From: a virus
Lineage: Duplodnaviria > Caudoviricetes
Virus record (IMG/VR): IMGVR_UViG_3300034072_001227
Span: 1-61,642 of that record
DNA: 61,642 bases
Strand: one strand, 5' to 3'
Positions 128 through 61,642 of this stretch are shown piece after piece. The number at the start of each line of letters is the position of its first letter. The stretch's first letter is position 1. Position numbers and translations under genes: made by a program. The notes beneath the pieces were generated by a model, which made no database searches, had not been told where the DNA came from, and was given only the letters and a program-made list of their open reading frames with translations.

Positions 128-447
128 ATCGCGAATTTGATATGATCGGGCGTCAATCCCATGGGGCCCGAACCTATGCCCGGGATCAGGCGGAAGGCGT
201 CGCTTGCCGTCTGCGCGCTGGCCTGCAGCGCTTCATAGTGCGCGGTGCAGATGGCGAAGCAATCGACCGCGACAACGTCAAGCCATGCGTGGCCATATGC
301 CGGGCTATTGCGCAAGGCGCGCAGATTGTGACCGTTGGGGAAATGGGTGTCAGTGCCCTTGCCCCATGCGATGCCAAGGGCATCCTTCCATGCCGGGCCA
401 TGGGCGGCAATGAAGGCGCTAAGCGTGGCGTTGGTTTCGGTGTCCAT
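1..447 (-). CDS. hypothetical protein spanning the circular junction (MDTETNATLSAFIAAHGPAW...ARRAMGSL*, 151 aa)
   Basis: ATG at 447-445 directly after the stop of 449-709; open to base 1, continues at 61515 to TGA 61509-61507, abutting the next ATG at 61505; absent from the ORF track. Confidence 0.8.
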   Translation of the reverse strand, partial: MDTETNATLSAFIAAHGPAWKDALGIAWGKGTDTHFPNGHNLRALRNSPAYGHAWLDVVAVDCFAICTAHYEALQASAQTASDAFRLIPGIGSGPMGLTPDHIKFAMPYREAKAAYDGAAKRLKTYAAKYVKWFKKELAAARNARRAMG

Positions 448-824: not shown

Positions 825-873
825 TGGGCTTTTCCTTCCATCTGGCGACTGTTCCGCGTCGCCGTTTGCAGGC

Positions 874-904
874 CCTATCTGCGCCAGTTTTTGTTGGGGC
901 GCAA
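874..904 (-). promoter_or_regulatory. putative leftward sigma70-like promoter (TTGCGC-N17-CAGATA) carrying TTGCGCCCCAACAAA
   Basis: 15-bp motif identical to 13510-13524; AT-rich upstream tract. Confidence 0.5.
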
Positions 905-4466: not shown

Positions 4467-4735
4467 AACGCGAGCCGGCCGATGATGTCGATCAAGTCGC
4501 CGACGGTGCGCGCCTTGGTGACGTCCTTGTCGGGGATCTCGATCGAATAGGTGTCCTCGATGCCCATGATGAGTTCGACATGATCCAAACTGTCGAGCGA
4601 GGGAACATCTTCCCGGATGTCGCTGGCCTCGGTCAGGGCCTCGACCTGCGCCCTGTCGGCGTGGATCTCAATCATGAGATCCTTGATGCGCTCGAGCGCC
4701 TTCTCACGCATCGGCGTGACGATTGGAGAGGTCAT
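4463..4735 (-). CDS. acpP: acyl carrier protein
   Basis: SLDSLDHVELIMGIEDTYSIEIPD...TVGDLIDII; intact phosphopantetheine Ser in DSL; acidic, 90 aa. Confidence 0.9.
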   Translation of the reverse strand: MTSPIVTPMREKALERIKDLMIEIHADRAQVEALTEASDIREDVPSLDSLDHVELIMGIEDTYSIEIPDKDVTKARTVGDLIDIIGRLAF

Positions 4736-7374: not shown

Positions 7375-7790
7375 TGCTCGTGTCCAAGCGAGCGATTGTG
7401 CTGGTAACAGATGGCGCTCACGATCAGCTCGATCCCATAGACGTCCCCGACCGGGCCGAAGTCCGCGATGACGATCGTCTTGCCCTCGACGCGCACATAG
7501 ATGACCAGGCCAGCCATCAGATCCAGCTCGCCGTCATTGCGCGCGGGCCCGCCGATCGACATGCGGTTGGAGTGGAACCACTTTTCATCGCCATACTCGA
7601 GCAGCAGCTTGGCGGTGACGTCGAACGGGTCGGGATCGACCTGGGGGACGCCCTCGGTTCGACACTTAGGGCATGAGGTCTGGCTGCGCTTGCAATAGAA
7701 GATCACGCCTCCAGCTCCGCGCCAGCCGTGCGCCGGCCCGAAGCGGGTCTTGAAGACGCCGACGCATTCCTCGGGGAGAAACTGGCTCAT
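7371..7790 (-). CDS. hypothetical protein
   Basis: start MSQFLPEEC with ATGA overlap. Confidence 0.6.
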   Translation of the reverse strand: MSQFLPEECVGVFKTRFGPAHGWRGAGGVIFYCKRSQTSCPKCRTEGVPQVDPDPFDVTAKLLLEYGDEKWFHSNRMSIGGPARNDGELDLMAGLVIYVRVEGKTIVIADFGPVGDVYGIELIVSAICYQHNRSLGHEQ

Positions 7791-7935
7791 GACAGCCACC
7801 AGACCACAAAAAGGGTGCAGGCTGCGCACCAGAGCGCCAGATCCGGCCAGGTGGCGGTCCAAAGCGCCGCGCGGGGACGGCCTTCTTCCAGCAGGCGCGC
7901 GACCTTGGACGTCCGCGCATCTTGATATCGCCGGC

Positions 7936-9690: not shown

Positions 9691-9942
9691 TTAGGCAGCG
9701 GCTTCCTTGAAGGTGATGACTTCGCGCGCGGCGATCTGCAGCGTCTCACCCGTGTGCGGGTTGCGGCCAGTGCGGGCGGCGCGCTGCTTGCGGGCGAAGC
9801 GGCCGAAGCCCGGGAGGGCGACGAACTTCTCTTCCGCGATCGCGGCACTCAGGGCCGTGATGACGTTGGTGAGCTGGCGCTCTGCCTCCGCCTTCGTCAT
9901 CCCCTGCGCGACCAGCTTTGCGATAACAGCCTTGTTCTTCAT
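9691..9942 (-). CDS. hup: HU/IHF-family DNA-binding protein
   Basis: LPGFGRF...RAARTGRNPHTGETLQIAA signature. Confidence 0.92.
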   Translation of the reverse strand: MKNKAVIAKLVAQGMTKAEAERQLTNVITALSAAIAEEKFVALPGFGRFARKQRAARTGRNPHTGETLQIAAREVITFKEAAA

Positions 9943-13485: not shown

Positions 13486-13610
13486 GCTCGCAATCTGATT
13501 GCACGCATATTTGTTGGGGCGCAACAGGAAAATGCACATGCCGAGAAATTAGATTTCATTTTGTCCGTTGACCAAGCCATGCTGCCGCGCATAGGAAGGG
13601 GCATCAATTT
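13486..13610. promoter_or_regulatory. divergent control region
   Basis: leftward TTGCGCCCCAACAAA motif and GCAATCTGATTGC palindrome; rightward TTGACC at ~13568; transcription diverges here. Confidence 0.6.
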
Positions 13611-54305: not shown

Positions 54306-54757
54306 TTCCTGTCTCCGTTGATGTCCCCATCGGGATAGAGCTTGGCGATTTCCTTCTGCGCCCGAACAAAGACACTCTCGCGCATGGAGTAGAGAAGGCC
54401 GTCACCCATGGCGCGGACGATGCAATCGCCAGGCGGCGGCCGGAGGCGGTCGAAGCGCTCCTGATGGCGGAACCACATATTGCCCAGCGCGAGCTCGATC
54501 ATGAGATCAACGCAGCGCTCATCCCGGTCGCTGCCGGGAACCTTGGAGACGCGAACATCGACGTTCTCATTCCAGGTCAGGGCAACATCCTCCAGAAGCT
54601 CCAGCGCCAGCCCGGTCGCGCCGGTGCGCAGCGCTTCAATCGCGTGCTGCAGGCGCTGCTTGGCCCGGCTATTGAGGGCGATGCGGCGGTTCTCAGCCTT
54701 GAGGCGCTCTTCGCGCAACCGCGCTTCCCATTCGGCTTTGCTCCAGCGCTCTGTCAT
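54302..54757 (-). CDS. hypothetical protein
   Basis: coupled ORF. Confidence 0.65.
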   Translation of the reverse strand: MTERWSKAEWEARLREERLKAENRRIALNSRAKQRLQHAIEALRTGATGLALELLEDVALTWNENVDVRVSKVPGSDRDERCVDLMIELALGNMWFRHQERFDRLRPPPGDCIVRAMGDGLLYSMRESVFVRAQKEIAKLYPDGDINGDRK

Positions 54758-54981
54758 GCCGCCTTACCTTCGATCAGTATCTCGGCCGGCGCAGCTTCCG
54801 CGACGCCCGCCCAGAGGATTTCCACGAACTGCGCCGCGCCGTCGCCGCTGGAGACGCGGAGCGCGCTCTCCGCACAGGTGATCGCCATCGACATGTTGCG
54901 CGCGTTGGTCGTGTAGGACCATTCGGCGATCTCGCCCCGCACCTCAGCCATGGCGCGAACAGTGATCCCGGCTTTAAGCAT
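54754..54981 (-). CDS. hypothetical protein
   Basis: GGAG SD; coupled. Confidence 0.55.
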   Translation of the reverse strand: MLKAGITVRAMAEVRGEIAEWSYTTNARNMSMAITCAESALRVSSGDGAAQFVEILWAGVAEAAPAEILIEGKAA

Positions 54982-55294
54982 CGTGCGTCTCCGAGGGGAT
55001 GAACGAGCCCAGAGCACCGATGTCGAACAGCCAGGCGTTGCGATAGCTCCAGGTCATGACGCGCTCACCGCCCGGCGCGCGCTCATCGAACCAGATAGCG
55101 GTCTGGCCGAAGAAGAGCGCGCTGGGCGGGTCGGTGTCGCGCACGACGCGGTAGATGCGGCCGTGCATGTCGCGCTTCCACCCGTTGGCCTTGCACATCG
55201 CCACCAGAGGCAGGCCAAGGAGCGCCTTCCAGAGCGGCGGGAAAGCGCTGCCCGTGACATAGGCGGAGCGGCGGATGCGGTCTTTGAGGGTCAT
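54974..55294 (-). CDS. hypothetical protein
   Basis: CAGATGGAAGGA leader. Confidence 0.7.
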   Translation of the reverse strand: MTLKDRIRRSAYVTGSAFPPLWKALLGLPLVAMCKANGWKRDMHGRIYRVVRDTDPPSALFFGQTAIWFDERAPGGERVMTWSYRNAWLFDIGALGSFIPSETHDA

Positions 55295-55359
55295 GTATAT
55301 TCCTTCCATCTGCTTGAAGCGTCCCCGGGCTCTGTGCCCCGCCCGGGAGGGGATTGGTA

Positions 55360-55803
55360 TCAAGCCTTCTTGCGCCCCAGGCCGGAGGCGACGGCGAGCG
55401 CCTTGCGCTGCTCGGAATAAGCGGCCGCCGTCATGGGGTAGTCGTGCGGAAGACCGAAGCGCTCGCGGTAGCTGTCCGGCGTGTGGCCATTCAGCCCCAG
55501 GTGGCGCTTGAGCATCTTGTAGGGCTTGCCATCGAGGAAGCTGATGAGCGCATCGGGGCGGATTGACTTGCGGATCTCGCTCGCGGTCGGCTTGGGCGGG
55601 CTGGGGATGGACGGCGCCTCCTTGGCGTCCATGCCAGCGACATAGCGAAGGGCATCGCCGATCGAGCGGATCAGCGCGCCGATGCCTTCGGGCGAAGCGG
55701 CATGCGAGGTATGCGAGGTATGCGAGAGGTGTGCCGACGCAATCTGCGCGGTCAATTCAGCGATATCGAGCGAGCTGATCTCGCGGGGGAAAGTCTGGGA
55801 CAT
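55360..55803 (-). CDS. mucR: MucR/Ros family transcriptional regulator
   Basis: ELTAQIASAHL...KSIRPDALISFLDGKPYKMLKRHL...YRERFGLPHDYPMTA..YSEQRKALA..SGLGRK. Confidence 0.93.
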   Translation of the reverse strand: MSQTFPREISSLDIAELTAQIASAHLSHTSHTSHAASPEGIGALIRSIGDALRYVAGMDAKEAPSIPSPPKPTASEIRKSIRPDALISFLDGKPYKMLKRHLGLNGHTPDSYRERFGLPHDYPMTAAAYSEQRKALAVASGLGRKKA

Positions 55804-55876
55804 GAAATTGGCCTTTCGTGTTCGGGCATGATCGCCCAGCCTCGCGGCGGCTGGTGGGCCGCCGTCCGGTGGGGGA

Positions 55877-56230
55877 TCAGGCGGACGGGTCTAGCGCCAC
55901 GCGGCGGCACCAGTCGCAGCCGCAATTGGGATCGTCATGATCGAGCGGCACGGCTGGAGCGGGCGCTGTCGGCGTAACCTTGGAGGCGTTGCCCACTACC
56001 AGCCCGACGATATCAGCCAGCAGCCCGGCGGCATCGTCCGCCTCATCCGCAAAGGTGAACGGAATGACCATCTCCGCGTAGCGCACGGTGTGCCCACTCA
56101 GCAGCTTGTGCCGGATGGTGCAGGAGACATGGAACCCGGCCGGGAGGATCTCGATCTTGGTGCCGCGACCGGCCTGGCGCTCGGCATTGAGCAGCGCGCC
56201 GATGGCCTTGAGGGTGGATGCGTCGATCAT
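55877..56230 (-). CDS. hypothetical protein
   Basis: GGGAG SD; ATGA coupling. Confidence 0.65.
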   Translation of the reverse strand: MIDASTLKAIGALLNAERQAGRGTKIEILPAGFHVSCTIRHKLLSGHTVRYAEMVIPFTFADEADDAAGLLADIVGLVVGNASKVTPTAPAPAVPLDHDDPNCGCDWCRRVALDPSA

Positions 56231-56847
56231 GCGCCCGCGCTCCCGTCCTGGTGGGTGATGATCCACGACAGGGCGAGGTGCCCCGCGTGCGCCCGACAGA
56301 TGGGCTTGCCGTCCACAAGGAAGTCGGAGCGCTTGCCGCACAGGTTGGTCGGGAGGCCCCTGCGCTCGCGTTCGTGAAGGGCATAGCGGCTGTGCGGCGT
56401 CGCCCGATCCTTGGCAACCCGGATCGGCTGGACGCAGGGCGCGCGGTTGCTCCCGATCTCGCGCACGGGCTTGATGGTGGGAATGGTCATGGGTCTGGCC
56501 TCCATATCGGCAAGGATGGTGCGAGCGCGGGCAATCAGCCCATCAACCGCCGTGTCGTTGTCGAGATCGCGGCCATCGGCTTCCGCCTGCGTCGTCATGC
56601 GGCTGATCTGCTCGACAAAGGCCAGCAGGGTTTCGGCCGCGTCCTTCGCGCAGTCGGCGCGGGTATATTCGCGCACGCTGGCCGCGTCGCCCAAGTCATT
56701 AAGGGTGGTGTCTTCGTCGAAATCGACGCCCCACGCCTCGCAAAGGCGCTCGACCGCGAAGGCCTCCGCATCCTCCAGCGTGAGGGCGTCAACCGATTCC
56801 GCGAATAGTCCGCCATCGCAGGAGCCTTCGATAAGATAGCGTTTCAT
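56227..56847 (-). CDS. hypothetical protein
   Basis: ATGGAAGGA leader. Confidence 0.7.
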   Translation of the reverse strand: MKRYLIEGSCDGGLFAESVDALTLEDAEAFAVERLCEAWGVDFDEDTTLNDLGDAASVREYTRADCAKDAAETLLAFVEQISRMTTQAEADGRDLDNDTAVDGLIARARTILADMEARPMTIPTIKPVREIGSNRAPCVQPIRVAKDRATPHSRYALHERERRGLPTNLCGKRSDFLVDGKPICRAHAGHLALSWIITHQDGSAGA

Positions 56848-56879
56848 GTGTCGTCCTTCCATTTCTCTAAAGGGTGGTG

Positions 56880-57947
56880 TCAGGCCTGGGCCTTGATCGG
56901 CCAGCGCGCGTCGCCCCGGGCGGGCTTGCAAAAGCCGTCGTCAACCGCAGCGCCACCATAGGGGCGCATCTGGTCGAGCATATCGAGCAACGGCCGCATC
57001 TGGCTGACCGTGCGTTCTGCCGCGTCGGCGCGGTCACGCTGCGCCATGGCCTCCTGATCGGCTTCGCGCGCGCCGGCCAGCGCCAGCACCTTATCGCGGC
57101 GCTCGCGGTGGAGGGCGCGCACGGCGCGACGGCGGCCAGCATGCGCCCGCGATAGGGCATCCTCCAGCCGGTCAATCCGCGCCTGCATGGCCGCAATCGC
57201 TTCGCTATCGGCTGGAGCATCGGCCGCGATCGCCTCCACGACATCGGCCGCCGCAACGGCTGGCGCTTCGCCGACAAGGTCAAGGAATGACGCAGGGGCG
57301 ATTTCCGGCCCGCTCAGCGCCTTCACGACATCCGCGCCACATTGTGCCGCTTCCGGCTGGATCGACGCCACACGGGCGGGATTTGCGGCCAGAACGGCGC
57401 AAAGGTCGCGCACCATCGTTTCCAGTGCGCCGATGCGCGCAAGGGCTTCGCTATTCATGGGGGCAGATTCCTCCGAACGGGGGGCGGTCAATGGGGCCAC
57501 TGCAGGGCCGGAATTTGTTGCGGCCGTATCGGGCGGAGAACATTTTGCCGCCTTGTGGCAGGCCTTGCGCTTGGCCTTGGGCGCGGTTTCCACCGGGCCG
57601 CATGCCTGCCGCACCTTTGCCGCGTTCCACTGGAGCGCGCCGTTAGGCTTCGCGTTCATGCGGATGGAGCGCGCCACGTTCCCGGCGTCGTCCATTTCCT
57701 CGATATCGATGATATCCGCCCGCGCCATGTAACCGGGCATCGCAAGAATGACTTTCGCGTCCTTCCCTACGCCTGCCACGATGCCGCGCGGCTCATAAGA
57801 GACACCGGACGGGATAGCGAAGCCGCGCGACGCGGCCAGCCATTGCAAATAGGCCTTTGTCGCGTCGCCCTGGTCCTTCGCCGTAAATGGCTCCGGCTTA
57901 TTCAGGTCCGCCACGCTTGGCCGATACCATGCGCTATTCTGCAACAT
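56880..57947 (-). CDS. hypothetical protein with C-terminal coiled coil
   Basis: GATGGAAGGA leader. Confidence 0.75.
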   Translation of the reverse strand: MLQNSAWYRPSVADLNKPEPFTAKDQGDATKAYLQWLAASRGFAIPSGVSYEPRGIVAGVGKDAKVILAMPGYMARADIIDIEEMDDAGNVARSIRMNAKPNGALQWNAAKVRQACGPVETAPKAKRKACHKAAKCSPPDTAATNSGPAVAPLTAPRSEESAPMNSEALARIGALETMVRDLCAVLAANPARVASIQPEAAQCGADVVKALSGPEIAPASFLDLVGEAPAVAAADVVEAIAADAPADSEAIAAMQARIDRLEDALSRAHAGRRRAVRALHRERRDKVLALAGAREADQEAMAQRDRADAAERTVSQMRPLLDMLDQMRPYGGAAVDDGFCKPARGDARWPIKAQA

Positions 57948-58041
57948 GTCTCTTCCTTCCATCAGGGCTTGAGCGCCCGCCTAGCGCCCGGGATCGCCCG
58001 GCCGCTAAGGGGACGGCGCGGCATGGGGCCGCGCTCGCCTG

Positions 58042-58293
58042 TCAGTATTCCCGCGCCTCCACGCCCAAGCGGGCCGCGCGCGCCATCGCTTCCGCTTCCG
58101 CTGCTTCGCGCGTCGGAAAATCCTGTTCGTCGCTCAGGTCAAACGGCGCGTTTTCTTCGCCGTCGTGGCGCGTATAGACGCACCAGCCATGCGCGGCGGC
58201 GGGATCGTCGCAATAAGTCTGGTCGCCTTCATCGTCATAGGCCCACGGGTGGAAATAGACGGCGGACGGCTGGAGGGTGGCATTATTGGTCAT
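58042..58293 (-). CDS. hypothetical acidic protein
   Basis: CCAGATGGAAGGA leader. Confidence 0.75.
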   Translation of the reverse strand: MTNNATLQPSAVYFHPWAYDDEGDQTYCDDPAAAHGWCVYTRHDGEENAPFDLSDEQDFPTREAAEAEAMARAARLGVEAREY

Positions 58294-58382
58294 GGGTGGT
58301 CCTTCCATCTGGCACTATCGCCGTCGTGCGCCTGCGCTAGGGCAGGGGCAGGAAGGCGCGCGGGACTGGCCCGCGTCGCCGG

Positions 58383-58583
58383 TTATTCCTCCAGATTGTC
58401 CGCCTCCACCCGGATGCCCCGATATTCGGCATCATGCCGCGCATAGGAAGGCAGGCAGGACGGCCTGACATACCAACATGCATTCGCGCTATGCCAATCG
58501 ACTGGAGCGCCCGCCGGGACGTCCACAGTCAGGTTCAAGGCGCCCGGGCCGAAGTCATGGGTAAAGGCGGATTTAACGCGCAT
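58383..58583 (-). CDS. hypothetical protein
   Basis: GGGAGG SD before MRVKSAF. Confidence 0.65.
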   Translation of the reverse strand: MRVKSAFTHDFGPGALNLTVDVPAGAPVDWHSANACWYVRPSCLPSYARHDAEYRGIRVEADNLEE

Positions 58584-58956
58584 TGCGGCAACCTCCCGGC
58601 AATTCCTGATATGCCCCATAAGCGCCCTCGCCTTTCCCGCCCGGGATGGCTGGCCAGCCGTAGGATATGGGCGAAGGGCGAGCGGACCAATCGGACACGC
58701 GCCAGATGGAGCCATCGGGGGCGATGATATCCCGGCCGCCTCCGGCCTTGCTGGCCGCCTGATAGGTCAATTCCCGCGCTTTCACCTGATCGGCGTTTTC
58801 CACCTGCAGGACGCCGCCGACATCATAGCAGCGCTTGCCCATATCGCCGGGCAGTATGCGGCCGATAGCGCCGACGATGCGCCCGGCCTCTTCGCGGTCA
58901 TAGCTATCAAGTGGGGCCGTGTAACGGCTGGCGATAGTGAAGAGATATTTACGCAT
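58573..58956 (-). CDS. hypothetical protein
   Basis: GGAGG SD; overlaps neighbours. Confidence 0.7.
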   Translation of the reverse strand: MRKYLFTIASRYTAPLDSYDREEAGRIVGAIGRILPGDMGKRCYDVGGVLQVENADQVKARELTYQAASKAGGGRDIIAPDGSIWRVSDWSARPSPISYGWPAIPGGKGEGAYGAYQELPGGCRNAR

Positions 58957-59140
58957 TGGCCGCGCCCTCCAGTCGAACGCGCCGGGTCAGGACGCGATAG
59001 TCTCCGCCCTCATTCTCGCGATACTCGCGCAGGCGTGCGCGGATATCGGCGCGCGTGTCTTCCGTGGTCAGGCATTCCCAGCCCTGCCCATAGTTGCCTT
59101 GCAATTCGTATTCGTCGCGGGTTTTGCGCTGATAGGCCAT
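58949..59140 (-). CDS. small hypothetical phage protein
   Basis: LQGNYGQGWE...LREYRENE. Confidence 0.7.
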   Translation of the reverse strand: MAYQRKTRDEYELQGNYGQGWECLTTEDTRADIRARLREYRENEGGDYRVLTRRVRLEGAANA

Positions 59141-59143
59141 GGC

Positions 59144-59728
59144 TTAATAATCCTGCGCGGCAAGCTGGAGGGCGGACAGGGCTTCTTGCCCGATCCCGGC
59201 GCGTAATTGCAGGGCGTCGGCCATACATTGCTTGTAAATGGCTTCATCCTTGCGGCTATCGGAATTAAAGCCCAATTCATCGGCCCAATCCTCAAATCGG
59301 GCGTAATTCAGGACATCCGCGTCAATGGCCAGCGAATAGACGACATCCGCCGCCGATGGGGCAGGGATGGCCTTGCCGTTCTGGAACATTGCCAGCCCGC
59401 CCGGCGCGAAAACGGTAATTCTGCCGGTTTCGGTTTCGCGCTCAATCGCCGATGCGCGCAACATGCTATAGGCCGATCCGGCTTGCTTGACGCTGGCCTT
59501 ATAGGCTGGCGCAAGGCCGAATCCCTGCGTGTAGTCGGTGGTGATGATATCCCGATAGCGGTCATCACCTTCACCGTTCTTGTAGCGCTGGACCAGCGTT
59601 ATCCGCCAATTGAGCGAGCGATGATTTTCCGCCGCATTGCGCGACTTGGAGAACGGCACAAATTCAGCCCGGATGGACAGACCAAGGCGTTCAATCGCCT
59701 GCTCTAGGGTTTCCGTTGCCTCGCCCAT
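59144..59728 (-). CDS. hypothetical protein
   Basis: GGAGG SD before MGEATE; FEDWADELGFNSDSRK. Confidence 0.75.
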   Translation of the reverse strand: MGEATETLEQAIERLGLSIRAEFVPFSKSRNAAENHRSLNWRITLVQRYKNGEGDDRYRDIITTDYTQGFGLAPAYKASVKQAGSAYSMLRASAIERETETGRITVFAPGGLAMFQNGKAIPAPSAADVVYSLAIDADVLNYARFEDWADELGFNSDSRKDEAIYKQCMADALQLRAGIGQEALSALQLAAQDY

Positions 59729-59729
59729 C

Positions 59730-59876
59730 TCAGCGGCCCTCCGGTGCGTGGAACCCGTCCAGCGAAGCCGGGAACGCGATGGCAAGGAACAGGCGCGCCG
59801 ACTTGTCGCGGCGCTGCGCCTTGCGGGTCATGCGGCGCGCCTTAGCGCCCGGCAAACGGCTATGATCGATGTGCAT
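59730..59876 (-). CDS. small basic protein (48 aa, MHIDHSRLPGAKARR...)
   Basis: CCAGATGGAAGGA leader; stop abuts next ATG; directly downstream of the hammerhead. Confidence 0.6.
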   Translation of the reverse strand: MHIDHSRLPGAKARRMTRKAQRRDKSARLFLAIAFPASLDGFHAPEGR

Positions 59877-59894
59877 TGCGGTTTCCTTCCATCT

Positions 59895-59957
59895 GGCCTG
59901 CCTCATCAGTAGGGGGCGGCCGCTTCCCCTAGACGCGCCATGGCGGCGCGTTTCGGC
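59895..59957 (-). ncRNA. type II hammerhead self-cleaving ribozyme
   Basis: minus strand GCC-GAAA-CGCGCC-gccat-GGCGCG-UC^UAGGGG-aagcggccgc-CCCCUA-CUGAUGA-GGC; complete core and three stems. Confidence 0.88.
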
Positions 59958-60722
59958 TTAGATATTGTCGGCGGCGAATTGCTCAATCGGGATGCTTTTG
60001 CCATCGGCCCAATAGTGGAAATTATCCGCGATGGCCGCGCGCAGGGATAGCGCCTCTTGCATAGCGCGCAGATGCTCCTTTACCGCCTTATGCAGCGCCG
60101 CGCAGATAGTCGGCGCGGCCATCGTGCCAGCGCGCCGGGCTGCGCCGATATCCTTAATCAGGGCGCGCGCGCTGGCCTTTTCTTCGCTGGCGGTGTCTTC
60201 TGCATCATGCCAGCCATTGGCCAGATTCCACGCTTGCTGATATTCGTATTCCGTCTCTAGGGATTTATATATCCACCGCGCAAAGTCGCGCATGGCGTCG
60301 ATTATCTCCCCTTCTGCCTCCGATGGGACATAGCGCCCTTGAACCCATGCGCCGCCAGCAACCTCTTTTCCGTCGGCGCGGTCGATATCCACGCGCATCG
60401 TCATTTCATGGCAATAGTGGCCGATGCTGCGCGAAATGGACGCCTCTAGTTGATAGAAATTGCGGGATTGGACGCGCTGCAGCCTATCCGCGATGGCGTG
60501 CAATTCGGTCGCTTTCGGCCATTCCTTGCGGATAGCGGCGGCCGCGCCCTTGGCATAGGCGTAACTTCCCGTGAATGACGCGCCATCGCCTTGAGACCAG
60601 AAGCCGGAAAAGCTGATATCGTCGATATCAATGCCGATAGTGCGCGCCGCGTCCTTCGCGTTGCCATAGACGCCTGCATGCCAGCCATAGTGCGGCGTGT
60701 AGTGTTCATGATTGAATGCCAT
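59958..60722 (-). CDS. hypothetical phage protein
   Basis: FSGFWSQGDGASF...WIYKSLETEYEY; CCAGATGGAAGGA leader. Confidence 0.8.
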   Translation of the reverse strand: MAFNHEHYTPHYGWHAGVYGNAKDAARTIGIDIDDISFSGFWSQGDGASFTGSYAYAKGAAAAIRKEWPKATELHAIADRLQRVQSRNFYQLEASISRSIGHYCHEMTMRVDIDRADGKEVAGGAWVQGRYVPSEAEGEIIDAMRDFARWIYKSLETEYEYQQAWNLANGWHDAEDTASEEKASARALIKDIGAARRAGTMAAPTICAALHKAVKEHLRAMQEALSLRAAIADNFHYWADGKSIPIEQFAADNI

Positions 60723-60816
60723 TGCCTTATCCTTCCATCTGGGCAGATATCGCCCGCTAGGCGACTGGAGATGCCTCCAGCGGCCAAGGGGGCGGCGGGG
60801 CAAGCCCGCGCGCCAG

Positions 60817-61002
60817 TTATATGCCGTAGGCCCGCATTTCGTCCCTATGGGCGCAAATCAGCATGCCGGTTATCAGGACCATAAAGCCCGCGACCGTTGC
60901 CCAATATTCGGGCGTGTCGTGAATGGCCGCGCCGAAAGCGTCGCCGATCATGAAAGCCAGCACGCTAAGGGCGATGGCGCGGATTAGGTCTAGGGGTAGC
61001 AT
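60817..61002 (-). CDS. small two-TM protein
   Basis: GGAGG SD; two hydrophobic segments. Confidence 0.65.
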   Translation of the reverse strand: MLPLDLIRAIALSVLAFMIGDAFGAAIHDTPEYWATVAGFMVLITGMLICAHRDEMRAYGI

Positions 61003-61274
61003 TAGCGCGCCTCCACGTTGCGATTGCGGTAAACGACATAGCCGCCGGTAACGGTCATGATCGGGGGGAACGTGGCGGCAATCGCGCATTTCTTGCGCTC
61101 GATATATTCGCGCATGGCCTGCCCGGCATCTGCCCGGCAACGCACACCCATAGCGTGCCCGGCAATGTTGATCCCGACGATTAGCGCCATATCGTGCAAA
61201 TCGACGCGCTGGCGAAAATAGCGCTGGTCGCGCTTTGCGCAGACCGTCCGAAAGTCATCATGTAGCTTGCTCAT
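61002..61274 (-). CDS. hypothetical protein
   Basis: TAATG coupling. Confidence 0.65.
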   Translation of the reverse strand: MSKLHDDFRTVCAKRDQRYFRQRVDLHDMALIVGINIAGHAMGVRCRADAGQAMREYIERKKCAIAATFPPIMTVTGGYVVYRNRNVEAR

Positions 61275-61277
61275 GGC

Positions 61278-61505
61278 TTAGGCCGCCTTTGCGCTAGTGT
61301 TATTATCGAGCCAATCGGCGGCCATTTCGGCACGTTCCGCGTTGCGGATAATCCGCGCAGCGCGCTTGCGTTCATCGGCCGCATGGGCGCGCAGCGACTT
61401 TTGCGCGGAACGGCCGGGCGACAAGAGAAAGTCAATCTGGCCAATGTTATCCTTTACGCATGCATAGGCATGCGCGCCGATCATAAAGCGGACATTGATA
61501 ATCAT
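61278..61505 (-). CDS. hypothetical protein
   Basis: GGGAG SD; follows the junction-spanning gene. Confidence 0.7.
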   Translation of the reverse strand: MIINVRFMIGAHAYACVKDNIGQIDFLLSPGRSAQKSLRAHAADERKRAARIIRNAERAEMAADWLDNNTSAKAA

Positions 61506-61515
61506 GTCACAGACT

Positions 61516-61642
61516 CCCCATGGCGCGGCGCGCGTTGCGAGCGGCGGCCAGTTCCTTTTTGAACCATTTCACATATTTGGCCGCATAGGTTTTCAGGCGC
61601 TTGGCCGCGCCATCATAGGCCGCCTTGGCTTCGCGATAGGGC
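61516..61642. repeat. 127-bp direct terminal repeat (copy 2)
   Basis: identical to 1-127. Confidence 0.95.

What the first reader, a model, noticed from the sequence alone, without database searches (positions are those of the whole stretch)
55295..60816. Family of structured intergenic leaders ending in (CCA)GATGGAAGGA, one of which is the hammerhead
Seen: TCCTTCCAT(CTGG) occurs on the + strand at ~833, 55301, 56854, 57954, 58300, 59884 and 60730, each 6-9 nt before a minus-strand ATG. Except at 56854, a hairpin precedes it. Two copies (57961-58041, 60743-60816) share one architecture with different stem sequences: GGCG-hairpin-CG(T/C)C, a CCC linker, a TT(A/G)GC...hairpin...CTAG, a GGGC-loop-GCCC hairpin, then GATGGAAGGA. 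Related layouts occur at 58311-58385 and 55311-55360, and 55804-55876 has the GGGC-loop-GCCC hairpin without the motif. The hammerhead occupies the equivalent slot at 59895-59957. Inference: a repeated cis RNA module that cuts or stabilises the early transcript and gives each cassette a standard ribosome-binding site. The non-hammerhead copies could be an undescribed ribozyme, nuclease-processing sites, or recombination handles for swapping gene cassettes.
Basis: partly seen in the sequence, partly recalled or inferred. Interest (0 to 1): 0.78.

Follow-up and report, generated by a model that had tools for sequence, protein, structure and literature searches.

The report
Repeated structured leaders between phage genes
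A 61.6-kb phage, probably of Sphingomonas-type bacteria, puts the same ribosome-binding block, usually preceded by related RNA hairpins and once by a hammerhead ribozyme, in front of its early genes, and two of these repeats mark the ends of a gene block that a close relative lacks.

Summary
TCCTTCCAT occurs 8 times exactly, all on one strand (0.37 expected). Seven copies lie 6-8 nt before a minus-strand ATG, and one lies inside a gene. One slot is a true type II hammerhead (Rfam, 54.5 bits).

Three leaders, which I call A (60740-60816), B (57964-58041) and C (58310-58382), are 65-72% identical sequence paralogues. They share three hairpins. In 11 of 25 pairs both sides have changed and pairing is kept. 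Leaders E (844-863) and G (55804-55876) share single modules. D (55311-55359) shares only the ribosome block.

A, B and C match no Rfam family, fit no HDV-like fold, and have no sigma-70-like promoter or U-tract terminator. I found no copy in IMG/VR patterns, in 160 related loci, or in 151 Sphingomonadaceae genomes.

A contig from an independent metagenome joins leader B directly to leader A. That skips the 2.78 kb between them, so the repeats bound a gene cassette that is present or absent among close variants.

A second Sphingomonadaceae phage contig shows the same design (hairpin or hammerhead, then a fixed block) with a different block.

Best reading: intercistronic RNA boundary and translation cassettes that also act as recombination sites, similar to T4-type PeSLs but without a recognisable promoter. 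A new ribozyme class is not supported, though it is not excluded. There is no RNA evidence.

The parts
890..904 (-). Promoter-like 15-mer upstream of the first leader (E). Its only other exact copy is at 13510-13524 on the minus strand.
   Evidence: 2 exact copies, 0.06 matches expected at up to 2 mismatches. None lies in leaders A-D, which argues that those leaders are internal to one transcript. This is an inference.
844..863 (-). Leader E hairpin, P1-like. It shares a 10-nt run and the loop context with P1 of leader C. It is followed directly by the ribosome block at 833-844 and the ATG at 823.
   Evidence: Fold. E-C similarity z 4.6, 0 of 200 shuffles. Block position.
60740..60816 (-). Leader A, with three hairpins (P1, P2, P3). 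P1 starts 2 nt after the TAA of the upstream gene (60817-61002). Ribosome block at 60730-60741, ATG at 60722.
   Evidence: Covariance model R1 scores it 78.5 bits, but it is a training sequence.
59892..59958 (-). Type II hammerhead ribozyme in the same kind of slot. It starts at the last base of the TAA of the 254-aa gene. Predicted cut is between C59932 and U59931. Ribosome block at 59884-59895, ATG at 59876.
   Evidence: Rfam RF02276, 54.5 bits, gathering score 37, E 1.7e-08. The cut site follows from the GUC triplet in that alignment plus general knowledge of hammerheads; it was not tested.
58310..58382 (-). Leader C, a paralogue of A and B with P1, a different P2 and a 3-bp P3. Ribosome block at 58300-58311, ATG at 58293.
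   Evidence: R1 scores it 79.1 bits, but it is a training sequence.
57964..58041 (-). Leader B, with three hairpins. P1 starts 2 nt after the TGA of the upstream gene. The block here reads TGATGGAAGGA (57954-57964), ATG at 57947.
   Evidence: Its minimum-energy fold is exactly the three hairpins. Also.
58029..60805 (-). A 2.78-kb gene block (254-aa phrog_5162 protein, hammerhead, five small genes, leader C, 83-aa gene) that a 95-98% identical relative lacks. Its ends lie in P1 of leader B and P1 of leader A.
   Evidence: run X4, record 28 (424 nt, depth 3.7) lies on 57773-58028 and on 60806-60973, a joint that skips 2777 nt with 6 letters fitting both sides. X4 depth is 0 in the bins from 58235 to 60753. 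The longest identical run between the two neighbourhoods is 10 nt, so a k-mer misjoin is unlikely.
56854..56879 (-). Leader F, only 32 nt between stop and ATG. It has the ribosome block ATGGAAGGA but no hairpin. ATG at 56847.
   Evidence: -3.3 kcal/mol, z 0.11.
55804..55876 (-). Leader G before the MucR-like gene. It has a strong hairpin and then a GGGC-loop-GCCC hairpin like P3 of A and B. Its ribosome site is different (GAAAGG).
   Evidence: Fold z -3.0. B-G similarity z 4.1. R1 gives only 14.1 bits, E 1.2. The MucR call is PF05443, E 4.4e-31.
55301..55359 (-). Leader D, with an unrelated GC hairpin, a mini-hairpin and then CAGATGGAAGGA. ATG at 55294.
   Evidence: z +0.48. Not similar to A, B or C beyond the block.

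Best explanation
The leaders are a family of intercistronic expression cassettes inside one long early transcript of a Sphingomonas-type phage. The transcript runs on the minus strand from a promoter-like site near 900, through the terminal repeat, to about 55000.

Each cassette has a structured RNA part and a fixed 9-13-nt ribosome-binding block, (C)CAGAUGGAAGGA, whose GGAAGGA pairs with the extreme 3' tail of the host 16S rRNA.

In A, B and C the structured part is three hairpins. P1 starts 2 nt after the upstream stop codon. I infer that P1 acts as a 3' protective hairpin for the upstream message. I infer that P2 and P3 act as 5' hairpins for the downstream message, after a cut in or near the P1-P2 linker or within the long alternative P2 helix, by a host nuclease of the RNase III or RNase E type.

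The hammerhead produces the same product layout by cutting itself: an upstream RNA ending in a GC hairpin and a downstream RNA beginning with a hairpin followed by the same ribosome block. In leader E, transcription initiation would place a P1-like hairpin at the 5' end.

Because the cassettes are direct repeats at gene-block borders, they are also where gene blocks are gained or lost by recombination.

Shown here: the repeat family, its pairing pattern, the hammerhead, the fit to the 16S tail, and one natural variant with a leader-to-leader junction. Inferred: that the hairpins act in RNA, that a cut happens, and which enzyme makes it.
For: Motif enrichment and placement:
- 8 exact 9-mers against 0.37 expected, all on one strand, 7 of them 6-8 nt before a start.
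- GGAAGGA occurs 15 times in minus-strand sense and 2 times in plus-strand sense.

Paralogy:
- A, B and C are 65-72% identical.
- With the ribosome block removed, A-B z is 6.0 and A-C z is 3.7.

Structure:
- RNAalifold on A, B and C without the block gives three hairpins. There are 25 pairs, and 11 keep pairing after changes on both sides.
- 89.3% of cells are paired against 72.8 +/- 3.8 in shuffles (0 of 500 reach the observed value). Partners slid by 1-3 columns give 43-51% paired.
- A G-U pair in P1 of B, and model scores of 78.5 and 69.5 bits in sense against 15 and 12 bits in antisense for A and B, favour RNA in the sense of the genes.

Not a terminator or promoter:
- No sigma-70-like promoter or U-tract terminator on the minus strand of 54800-61642.
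- The phage has a canonical terminator at 1482-1457.
- The promoter-like 15-mer occurs only at 890-904 and 13510-13524.

Hammerhead and literature:
- A hammerhead sits in an equivalent slot.
- Perreault et al. 2011 (PMC3088659, passages read) report hammerheads flanking single genes or short gene blocks in prophages and propose processing of long phage transcripts.

Same design elsewhere:
- In contig L283, a 15-nt block occurs twice (0 expected). One copy follows a GC hairpin (z -2.5) and the other follows a hammerhead-like element.
- In L152 the order is stop, hammerhead, Shine-Dalgarno, ATG.

16S fit:
- The 16S gene end reads ...CCTCCTTTCT in 3 of the 4 places read.

Cassette border:
- The X4 joint 58028/60806, with only 10 nt of identical run between the two neighbourhoods.
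Against: - There is no RNA evidence of any kind. No RNA run is listed, so no ends, cuts or stabilities are known.
- Fold energies are only 1.3-2.0 sd below shuffles for A, B and C, and not below for D and the hammerhead slot.
- The covariation rests on three paralogues of one genome, and the structure was predicted from those same sequences. DNA palindromes would show the same pattern.
- Two competing folds lie within 1.5-2 kcal/mol in all three leaders, so the real structure is uncertain.
- The predicted probability that the Shine-Dalgarno is fully unpaired is low, 0.002-0.05 for A, B and C. That does not fit a device built to expose it.
- The junction is one 424-nt contig at depth 3.7.
- At least one other piece of the same relative stops matching inside a gene (record 24 ends at 56345), so not all differences lie at leaders.
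- No second phage with this element was found, so selection on it cannot be shown.
Confidence: 0.45

Rival explanations
1. PeSL-type composite cassettes. Each leader would be an attenuator hairpin plus its own weak alphaproteobacterial promoter, with a -35-like CTTG/CTTA after P1 and a -10-like CTAG or the AT-rich P3 loop. Every gene block would then be its own transcription unit, and P3 would sit at the 5' end of the new RNA.
For: - In the closest prophage relative (L282, 57% identical 254-aa protein) the equivalent positions hold a 72-nt repeat in two copies (83% identical; a third partial copy is seen by eye). It has TTGACG, 17 nt, TAAGGT and a fixed leader ending in ATG.
- PeSLs of T4-type phages have a stem-loop, most often between -35 and -10, and end in a Shine-Dalgarno and start codon (PMC2839356, section 13 read).
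- In B, TTAGCG and CTAGGC are 18 nt apart (read).
Against: - The consensus scan finds no promoter-like site on the minus strand of 54800-61642.
- The spacing between the candidate boxes is 21 nt in A and 18 in B, and there is no -35-like hexamer at all in C (read).
- The phage's own promoter-like 15-mer is absent from leaders A-D.
- The scan uses the E. coli consensus, so GC-rich alphaproteobacterial promoters could be missed.
Confidence: 0.2
2. Scars of cassette traffic with little function of their own. The leaders would have been copied along when gene blocks were inserted or duplicated. Only the Shine-Dalgarno would be selected, and the hairpins would be ordinary GC-rich palindromes that persist by descent.
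For: - A, B and C align as plain sequence.
- Modules are shuffled among leaders: E has only a P1-like hairpin, G a P3-like one, F none.
- The family is private to this phage lineage in everything searched.
- Energy z-scores are weak.
- The X4 junction shows that repeats recombine.
Against: - P2 differs at most stem positions between A, B and C yet stays paired. Of its 11 pairs, 6 have changes on both sides, and 93.9% of cells are paired.
- P1 starts exactly 2 nt after the stop in all three leaders.
- A ribozyme occupies the same slot, and a second phage repeats the design with other sequences.
Confidence: 0.2
3. A, B and C are an undescribed class of self-cleaving ribozyme, interchangeable with the hammerhead in the neighbouring slot.
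For: - They sit in the same operon and the same kind of slot as a hammerhead. New ribozyme classes have been found near known ones; I recall this, and no paper on it was read here.
- The multi-hairpin fold has compensatory changes.
- No Rfam family matches them.
Against: - Almost all positions conserved among A, B and C lie in helices or in the ribosome block. The junctions and loops differ between copies, unlike the conserved cores of known ribozymes.
- No hit to any ribozyme family at E <= 10.
- No HDV-like nested fold in any leader: the descriptor hit two minus-strand sites elsewhere, the same number as with wrong catalytic bases.
- There are no homologues outside this phage with which to test conservation.
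Confidence: 0.05
4. The elements work as DNA. The palindromes would be binding sites for a phage or host protein (for example the phage's MucR-like or LexA-like regulators) or host-type REP elements.
For: - Inverted repeats keep complementarity in DNA as well as in RNA.
- The phage encodes a MucR-family protein right in this region.
Against: - The stem sequences differ between copies, which does not suit one sequence-specific binding protein.
- The model is strand-specific.
- No full-length match to leader B in 121 Sphingomonadaceae genomes, only partial hits of 19-66 nt.
- 0 of 151 genomes hit by the covariance model. So this is not a host REP family in those genomes searched.
Confidence: 0.05

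Closest known systems
PeSLs (promoter-early stem-loops) of T4-type phages (Arbiol et al. 2010, PMC2839356; Comeau et al. 2014, PMC4122927)
   Same: - Both are short repeated intergenic cassettes among small early genes of unknown function.
- Both contain a GC stem-loop just after the upstream stop codon and end in the Shine-Dalgarno and start codon of the next gene.
- In both, recombination between copies makes insertions and deletions between closely related phages. For the PeSLs I read the abstracts and section 13. Here the evidence is the X4 junction between leaders B and A.
   Different: - PeSLs are defined by a strong sigma-70 consensus promoter with an AT-rich upstream region and a stem-loop that terminates transcription. 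Here no promoter-like site is found and the hairpins have no U tract.
- The conserved core here is a ribosome-binding block, there are up to three hairpins, and one slot holds a ribozyme.
- The phage is a 61.6-kb GC-rich one of alphaproteobacterial type, not a T4-type myovirus.
Clustered hammerhead ribozymes flanking single genes or short gene blocks in prophages (Perreault et al. 2011, PMC3088659)
   Same: - A type II hammerhead lies between two early genes, just upstream of the next gene's ribosome site, in a phage of an alphaproteobacterial host.
- The paper proposes that long phage transcripts are cut into gene-length messages (passages read).
   Different: Here only one of eight slots has a hammerhead. 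The others hold non-ribozyme hairpins that share only the downstream block with it.
RNase III processing sites between the early genes of phage T7 (R0.3, R0.5, R1, R1.1, R1.3), and the intercistronic hairpins that stabilise puf mRNA segments in Rhodobacter. Both are recalled; no paper was read.
   Same: - In both, related irregular hairpins lie between cistrons of one early transcript.
- After a cut, a hairpin is left at the 3' end of the upstream message.
- The alternative fold of A, B and C is an irregular hairpin of about 12-19 bp with mismatches.
   Different: No cleavage is shown here, and no sequence similarity was tested or is claimed. The helices are shorter and more interrupted in C, and the responsible enzyme is unknown.
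Ribozyme-plus-hairpin insulator parts used in synthetic biology (RiboJ). Recalled; no paper was read.
   Same: A self-cleaving hammerhead-type ribozyme followed by a short hairpin and then a standard ribosome site makes expression independent of upstream context.
   Different: RiboJ is engineered. Here the analogy is functional only and untested.

Membership tests
Hammerhead ribozyme type II (Rfam RF02276) | A match to the covariance model above its gathering score, with the conserved core (CUGAUGA, GAAA, GUH) | tested here: met
   For 59892-59958 on the minus strand only: 54.5 bits against 37. All three core elements are visible in the alignment.
Hammerhead ribozyme type II (Rfam RF02276) | The same test applied to leaders A, B, C, D, E and G | tested here: not met
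   No further hammerhead hit on 54500-61642 at E <= 10 with permissive filters, nor on the whole window at gathering scores. A, B and C contain no GAAA strand before P1 (read).
Other catalogued self-cleaving ribozymes (twister, twister-sister, pistol, hatchet, HDV and others, as far as Rfam 15 holds them) | A match to the family model | tested here: not met
   One search gave 6 hits at E <= 10. Apart from the hammerhead, all are unrelated families at E 1.9-6.9 and far below their gathering scores.
HDV-like / theta (minimal HDV-like) ribozymes | A nested double pseudoknot: P1 of 6-7 bp starting with G1-U, P2, a 3-bp P3 with L3, P1.1, and a catalytic C in J4/2 | tested here: not met
   I used my own descriptor, written from recall of the published motif. 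The descriptor file of Kienbeck et al. 2024 is in a supplement that I could not see. On the minus strand it hit 2 sites (34911, 29059), neither in a leader. Controls with A, U or G in place of the catalytic C hit 2, 3 and 2 sites.
PeSL regulatory cassettes | A sigma-70 consensus promoter within the cassette | tested here: not met
   No promoter-like site on the minus strand of 54800-61642. The test uses the E. coli consensus, so it is weak for a GC-rich alphaproteobacterial host.
PeSL regulatory cassettes | A stem-loop after the upstream stop, a Shine-Dalgarno and start at the 3' end, and a location among small genes of unknown function | tested here: met
   Of the 10 proteins scanned, 9 have no Pfam family, and the two PHROG hits are of unknown function.
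PeSL regulatory cassettes | Copies are the end points of insertions or deletions between closely related phages | tested here: met
   One junction, 58028 to 60806, in one contig of run X4. It is a single low-depth observation.
Intrinsic (rho-independent) terminator | A GC-rich hairpin followed by a run of U | tested here: not met
   The terminator scan finds no minus-strand site in the region, but it does find this phage's terminator at 1482-1457 with TTTTTTTT. P1 is followed by CCCUU or UUCCU.
RNase III site of the T7 early type | An irregular hairpin of about two helical turns between cistrons, cut by RNase III | tested here: inconclusive
   The alternative fold gives long interrupted helices in A and B and a shorter one in C, within 1.5-2 kcal/mol of the three-hairpin fold. 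Cleavage cannot be tested with these tools.
Host REP-type dispersed palindromes | Many copies in the intergenic regions of the host genome | tested here: not met
   BLAST of leader B found 24 of 121 Sphingomonadaceae genomes with only partial hits of 19-66 nt and at most 2 per genome. The covariance model hit 0 of 151 genomes at E <= 0.001. The true host is unknown.

The most novel reading that the evidence does not exclude
Leaders A, B and C are a new kind of RNA cleavage element that a phage uses interchangeably with a hammerhead to cut its early transcript at gene-block borders. It could be a self-cleaving ribozyme of an undescribed class or a dedicated nuclease-recognition fold. The same repeats would double as the recombination sites that move the gene blocks.
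Probability: 0.06. Interest if true: 0.85.

Novelty: new variant of a known kind. Interest (0 to 1): 0.45.

Why it matters
Phages pack many small early genes into long transcripts. How they set each gene's expression, and how they swap such genes, are linked questions. This genome has one fixed ribosome-binding block in eight places, a family of covarying hairpins, a ribozyme in one slot, and a natural variant whose junction runs from one leader to another. That makes it a compact case in which RNA-level punctuation and DNA-level module exchange appear to use the same repeats.

If the hairpin leaders are cut or stabilise RNA as the hammerhead does, then what the phage needs is a boundary, not a particular fold. 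That would also explain why related phages fill the slot with a hairpin, a ribozyme or a promoter.

The limits are plain. The element is so far private to one phage lineage, and nothing is known about the RNA.

Tried and rejected
Searches for the element elsewhere
- The 14-mer GCCAGATGGAAGGA in IMG/VR gave at least 116 contigs with one hit each. That is chance level and useless.
- CTAG..GGGC..GCCCNGATGGAAGGA gave 0 hits.
- GGGC..GCCCNGATGGAAGGA gave 6 stretches, which are 3 distinct single-copy sequences without leader context.
- blastn of 55000-61642 against 50,697 phage records gave no match.
- The tools state that records of this genome, or very near it, may be left out.

Relatives found through proteins
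- Single-protein scans found none.
- An alignment of 26 homologues of the 254-aa protein found 80 loci in each collection.
- Only L282 (57% identity) and L283 (43%) match the query over nearly its full length; the other listed loci match mainly its N-terminal part, at up to 53% identity.
- Covariance model R1 found nothing in the 80 viral loci and one chance-level hit (E 0.47) in the 80 genome loci.
- I did not search the 80 metagenome loci L202-L281 with R1.

CAGATGGAAGGA in 401 Sphingomonadaceae genomes
- 91 genomes have a hit. About 120 places are listed; I did not count them exactly.
- The reversed control hit 13 genomes, by my reading of the table.
- The closest pair of hits on one contig is about 21 kb apart, so I found no second phage with a repeated leader.
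- The excess over the control is unexplained.

Translational-coupling switch
- The idea was that a terminating ribosome melts P1 and so frees the Shine-Dalgarno. I rejected it.
- With the first 8-16 nt held open, the predicted probability of an unpaired Shine-Dalgarno stayed at or below 0.009, against 0.002-0.05 in the free leader.

Trans-acting hammerhead or anti-leader RNA
- These leads came from earlier notes of this scan.
- The complement of the block never occurs in RNA sense elsewhere (0 forward matches).
- The hammerhead is a complete cis fold.

Other checks
- blastn-short of each leader against the window gave only 10-15-nt noise.
- My GC3-based gene caller missed most early genes, so I placed starts by hand.
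- No RNA holder is listed for this DNA.
- 16S was not found in draft genome G001.
The contigs of the closest protein homologues (63% identical, Logan and JGI) therefore could not be read.
- Supplements of the papers were closed. The HDV-like descriptor of Kienbeck et al. and the PeSL reporter figures are in supplements that I did not see.

Full report
Setting

The window is a complete virus record of 61,642 bases with 127-nt direct terminal repeats. The minus-strand genes at 1-900 therefore continue into 61,515-55,000 as one array. Most genes in the array are small and of unknown function. Of the 10 proteins I scanned, only the MucR-like one (55360-55803) has a Pfam family (PF05443, E 4.4e-31), and two hit PHROGs of unknown function. 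The closest full-length relative of the 254-aa protein (59958-60722) in species-representative genomes lies in a Sphingomonas prophage (57% identity), and the next in a Sphingomonadaceae MAG contig (43%). A Sphingomonas-type host is therefore likely but not shown.

The motif

TCCTTCCAT occurs 8 times exactly, always on the + strand, against 0.37 +/- 0.60 in shuffles. The eighth, at 383, lies inside a coding frame. In RNA sense the motif reads AUGGAAGGA, and five copies extend to CAGAUGGAAGGA. The start codon follows GGAAGGA after 6, 7 or 8 nt.

GGAAGGA is strongly strand-biased in the genome, with 15 copies in minus-strand sense and 2 in plus-strand sense. With a start and an ORF of at least 40 aa behind it, it precedes 8 minus-strand genes, including two outside the early array at 4735 and 13402. 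The gene behind the copy at 833 has only 37 aa and falls below that cut.

I read four places in four complete Sphingomonadaceae genomes that carry the anti-Shine-Dalgarno motif. In three of them the 16S gene reads ...CCTCCTTTCT. GGAAGGA can pair with UCCUUUC of that tail through six Watson-Crick pairs and one G-U pair. So the 3' part of the motif is a Shine-Dalgarno sequence. The 5' part (CAGAU) is not explained by 16S pairing.

The hammerhead

Rfam places a type II hammerhead at 59892-59958 on the minus strand, at 54.5 bits against a gathering score of 37. It begins at the last base of the upstream stop codon. The GUC triplet puts the predicted cut between 59932 and 59931. This prediction rests on what is generally known of hammerheads and was not tested here.

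After such a cut, the upstream RNA would end in a GC hairpin with a 5-nt loop. The downstream RNA would begin with a hairpin, followed by the core strand and then CAGAUGGAAGGA. No other Rfam family reaches even E 1 on 54500-61642.

The other leaders

I call the leaders, in order of transcription:
- E: hairpin 844-863
- A: 60740-60816
- HH: the hammerhead
- C: 58310-58382
- B: 57964-58041
- F: 56854-56879
- G: 55804-55876
- D: 55311-55359

A, B and C are sequence paralogues, with 66/92, 64/91 and 57/88 identical columns. With the ribosome block removed, A-B scores z 6.0 and A-C z 3.7 against shuffles. E shares its hairpin with P1 of C (z 4.6). G shares the GGGC-loop-GCCC hairpin region with B (z 4.1). 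D is not similar to A, B or C (z 0.3-0.5). F has no hairpin. The 'family' is thus a core of three full copies plus leaders that carry single modules, with the ribosome block common to all except G.

Structure

There are 25 pairs, and 11 have a sequence in which both sides changed and pairing is kept. Counting on that structure gives 89.3% of cells paired against 72.8 +/- 3.8 in column shuffles (0 of 500 reach the observed value). Partners slid by 1-3 columns give 43-51% paired. P2 carries most of the signal: 6 of its 11 pairs have double changes, and 93.9% of cells are paired.

P1 starts exactly 2 nt after the stop codon in all three leaders. A G-U pair in P1 of B, and much lower model scores on the opposite strand (15 and 12 bits against 78.5 and 69.5), fit RNA in the sense of the genes.

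The caveats are serious:
- There are only three sequences, all from one genome.
- The structure was predicted from those same sequences.
- Fold energies are only 1.3-2.0 sd below shuffles.
- A competing fold lies within 1.5-2 kcal/mol in all three leaders. In it, the 3' strand of the P1 base pairs with the 5' strand of P3, and P2 becomes a long interrupted helix.

What the leaders are not

- Canonical terminators. They have no U tract, and the scan finds no minus-strand site in the region, while it does find the phage's real terminator at 1482-1457.
- Recognisable sigma-70 promoters. The candidate boxes are 21 nt apart in A and 18 in B, and C has no -35-like hexamer at all. The phage's own promoter-like 15-mer occurs only at 890-904, upstream of leader E, and at 13510-13524.
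- HDV-like ribozymes. Earlier notes of this scan found these in the same kind of slot in other phages. My descriptor hit no leader, and its two minus-strand hits elsewhere equal the counts obtained with wrong catalytic bases.
- A host repeat family, in the 121 and 151 Sphingomonadaceae genomes searched.

The positions conserved among A, B and C lie almost entirely in helices or in the ribosome block. That does not look like the conserved unpaired core of a ribozyme.

A natural variant

Four DNA runs hold this stretch, and none is on record as RNA. I laid their contigs on 54800-61642. One contig of run X4, from a different study than the probable source, lies on 57773-58028 with 6 differences and continues at 60806-60973 with 8 differences. 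The skip is 2777 nt, and 6 letters fit both sides. X4 has no depth in the bins between 58235 and 60753.

Position 58028 is in the 5' strand of P1 of leader B, and 60806 is in the same part of P1 of leader A. The relative therefore has one hybrid leader where this phage has leader A, the 254-aa gene, the hammerhead, five small genes, leader C, an 83-aa gene and leader B. The longest identical run between the two neighbourhoods is 10 nt, so a k-mer assembly misjoin is unlikely.

I cannot tell whether the relative lost the block or this phage gained it. It is a single contig at depth 3.7. Another piece of the same relative stops matching inside a gene (56345), so leaders are not the only break points.

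Relatives

- In L283, the homologue of the 254-aa gene is followed by a GC hairpin (z -2.5) and a 15-nt block containing GGAAAGGA. About 1.1 kb further on, a hammerhead-like element (37.0 bits, exactly at the gathering score, with a changed core) is followed by the same 15-nt block. That makes 2 copies where 0 are expected.
- In L282, the equivalent positions hold a 72-nt repeat in two copies (83% identical) with TTGACG, 17 nt, TAAGGT and a fixed leader ending in ATG. A third partial copy is seen by eye.
- In L152, a type II hammerhead lies between a stop codon and the next Shine-Dalgarno. My crude descriptor found only this one in 240 loci (2.77 Mb), and it misses variants such as the one in L283.

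In this group of phages, the slot in front of early genes is thus filled by a standard block preceded by a hairpin, a ribozyme or a promoter.

Reading

The most economical account is that these are intercistronic boundary cassettes: a 3' hairpin for the upstream message, one or two 5' hairpins, and a standard ribosome site for the downstream one. The cut would be made by the RNA itself in the hammerhead slot. I infer that a host nuclease makes it in A, B and C. In leader E, transcription from the promoter-like site would itself place the hairpin near the 5' end.

Perreault et al. 2011 proposed this processing role for hammerheads that flank genes in prophages (passages read). Because the cassettes are direct repeats at block borders, they recombine, as PeSLs do in T4-type phages (abstracts read, section 13).

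I give this reading 0.45 confidence. The promoter-cassette and 'scar' readings get about 0.2 each. A new ribozyme and a DNA-level site get about 0.05 each.

Novelty and score

The kind is known: repeated regulatory cassettes at early-gene borders, hammerheads between phage genes, and intercistronic stabilising hairpins. The particular element matches nothing catalogued, lacks the promoter that defines PeSLs, and shares its slot with a ribozyme. Earlier notes of this scan describe comparable repeated leaders and ribozyme arrays in other phages, so the general phenomenon was seen before on other DNA. I rate it a new variant of a known kind, with interest 0.45.

Noticed in passing
window 890-904 and 13510-13524 (minus); 1048-1060 and 13486-13498 (minus): Two exact repeats shared by the two large control regions. 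One is a 15-mer with a -35-like TTGCGC, the other a 13-mer containing CAGAT. They are probably the early promoter and an operator. The gene behind the second copy of the 15-mer (ATG 13402) also uses GGAAGGA.
   Followed up: partly
window 383-391: An eighth exact copy of the 9-mer lies inside a minus-strand coding frame, not before a start. It may be chance or an internal start.
   Followed up: no
L282 7932-8003, 8771-8842 and about 9739-9830: A Sphingomonas prophage carries a 72-nt repeated promoter-plus-leader cassette (83% identical) in front of consecutive early genes, including the homologue of the 254-aa protein. Upstream there are three 24-nt repeats at 7757-7912.
   Followed up: partly
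L283 2061-2133: A hammerhead-like element scores exactly at the Rfam gathering score (37.0 bits). Its core reads UUGAUAA instead of CUGAUGA, so it may be inactive. It lies between a methyltransferase-like gene and a gene that looked to me like a sliding clamp (read by eye, not tested).
   Followed up: no
window 55698: The X4 relative has 9 extra letters in the short tandem repeat within the MucR-like gene (the stretch that encodes a repeated His-Thr-Ser motif). This is length variation in a regulator.
   Followed up: no
401 Sphingomonadaceae genomes: CAGATGGAAGGA is far commoner than its reversed control: 91 genomes against 13 by my reading. The copies are always dispersed. The reason is unknown; it could be a common ribosome-site context or coding usage.
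   Followed up: no
window 58400-61642 versus 55200-58400: G+C falls from about 0.66 to 0.57-0.63 in the part of the early array upstream in transcription, while the leaders themselves have 0.73-0.80 G+C. They are GC islands in a lower-GC gene array.
   Followed up: no
window 56854-56879 (leader F): The hairpin-less leader keeps CCCUUUAG, which resembles the P1-P2 linker of A and B, directly before the ribosome block. It looks as if P2 and P3 had been deleted between two UAG words.
   Followed up: no
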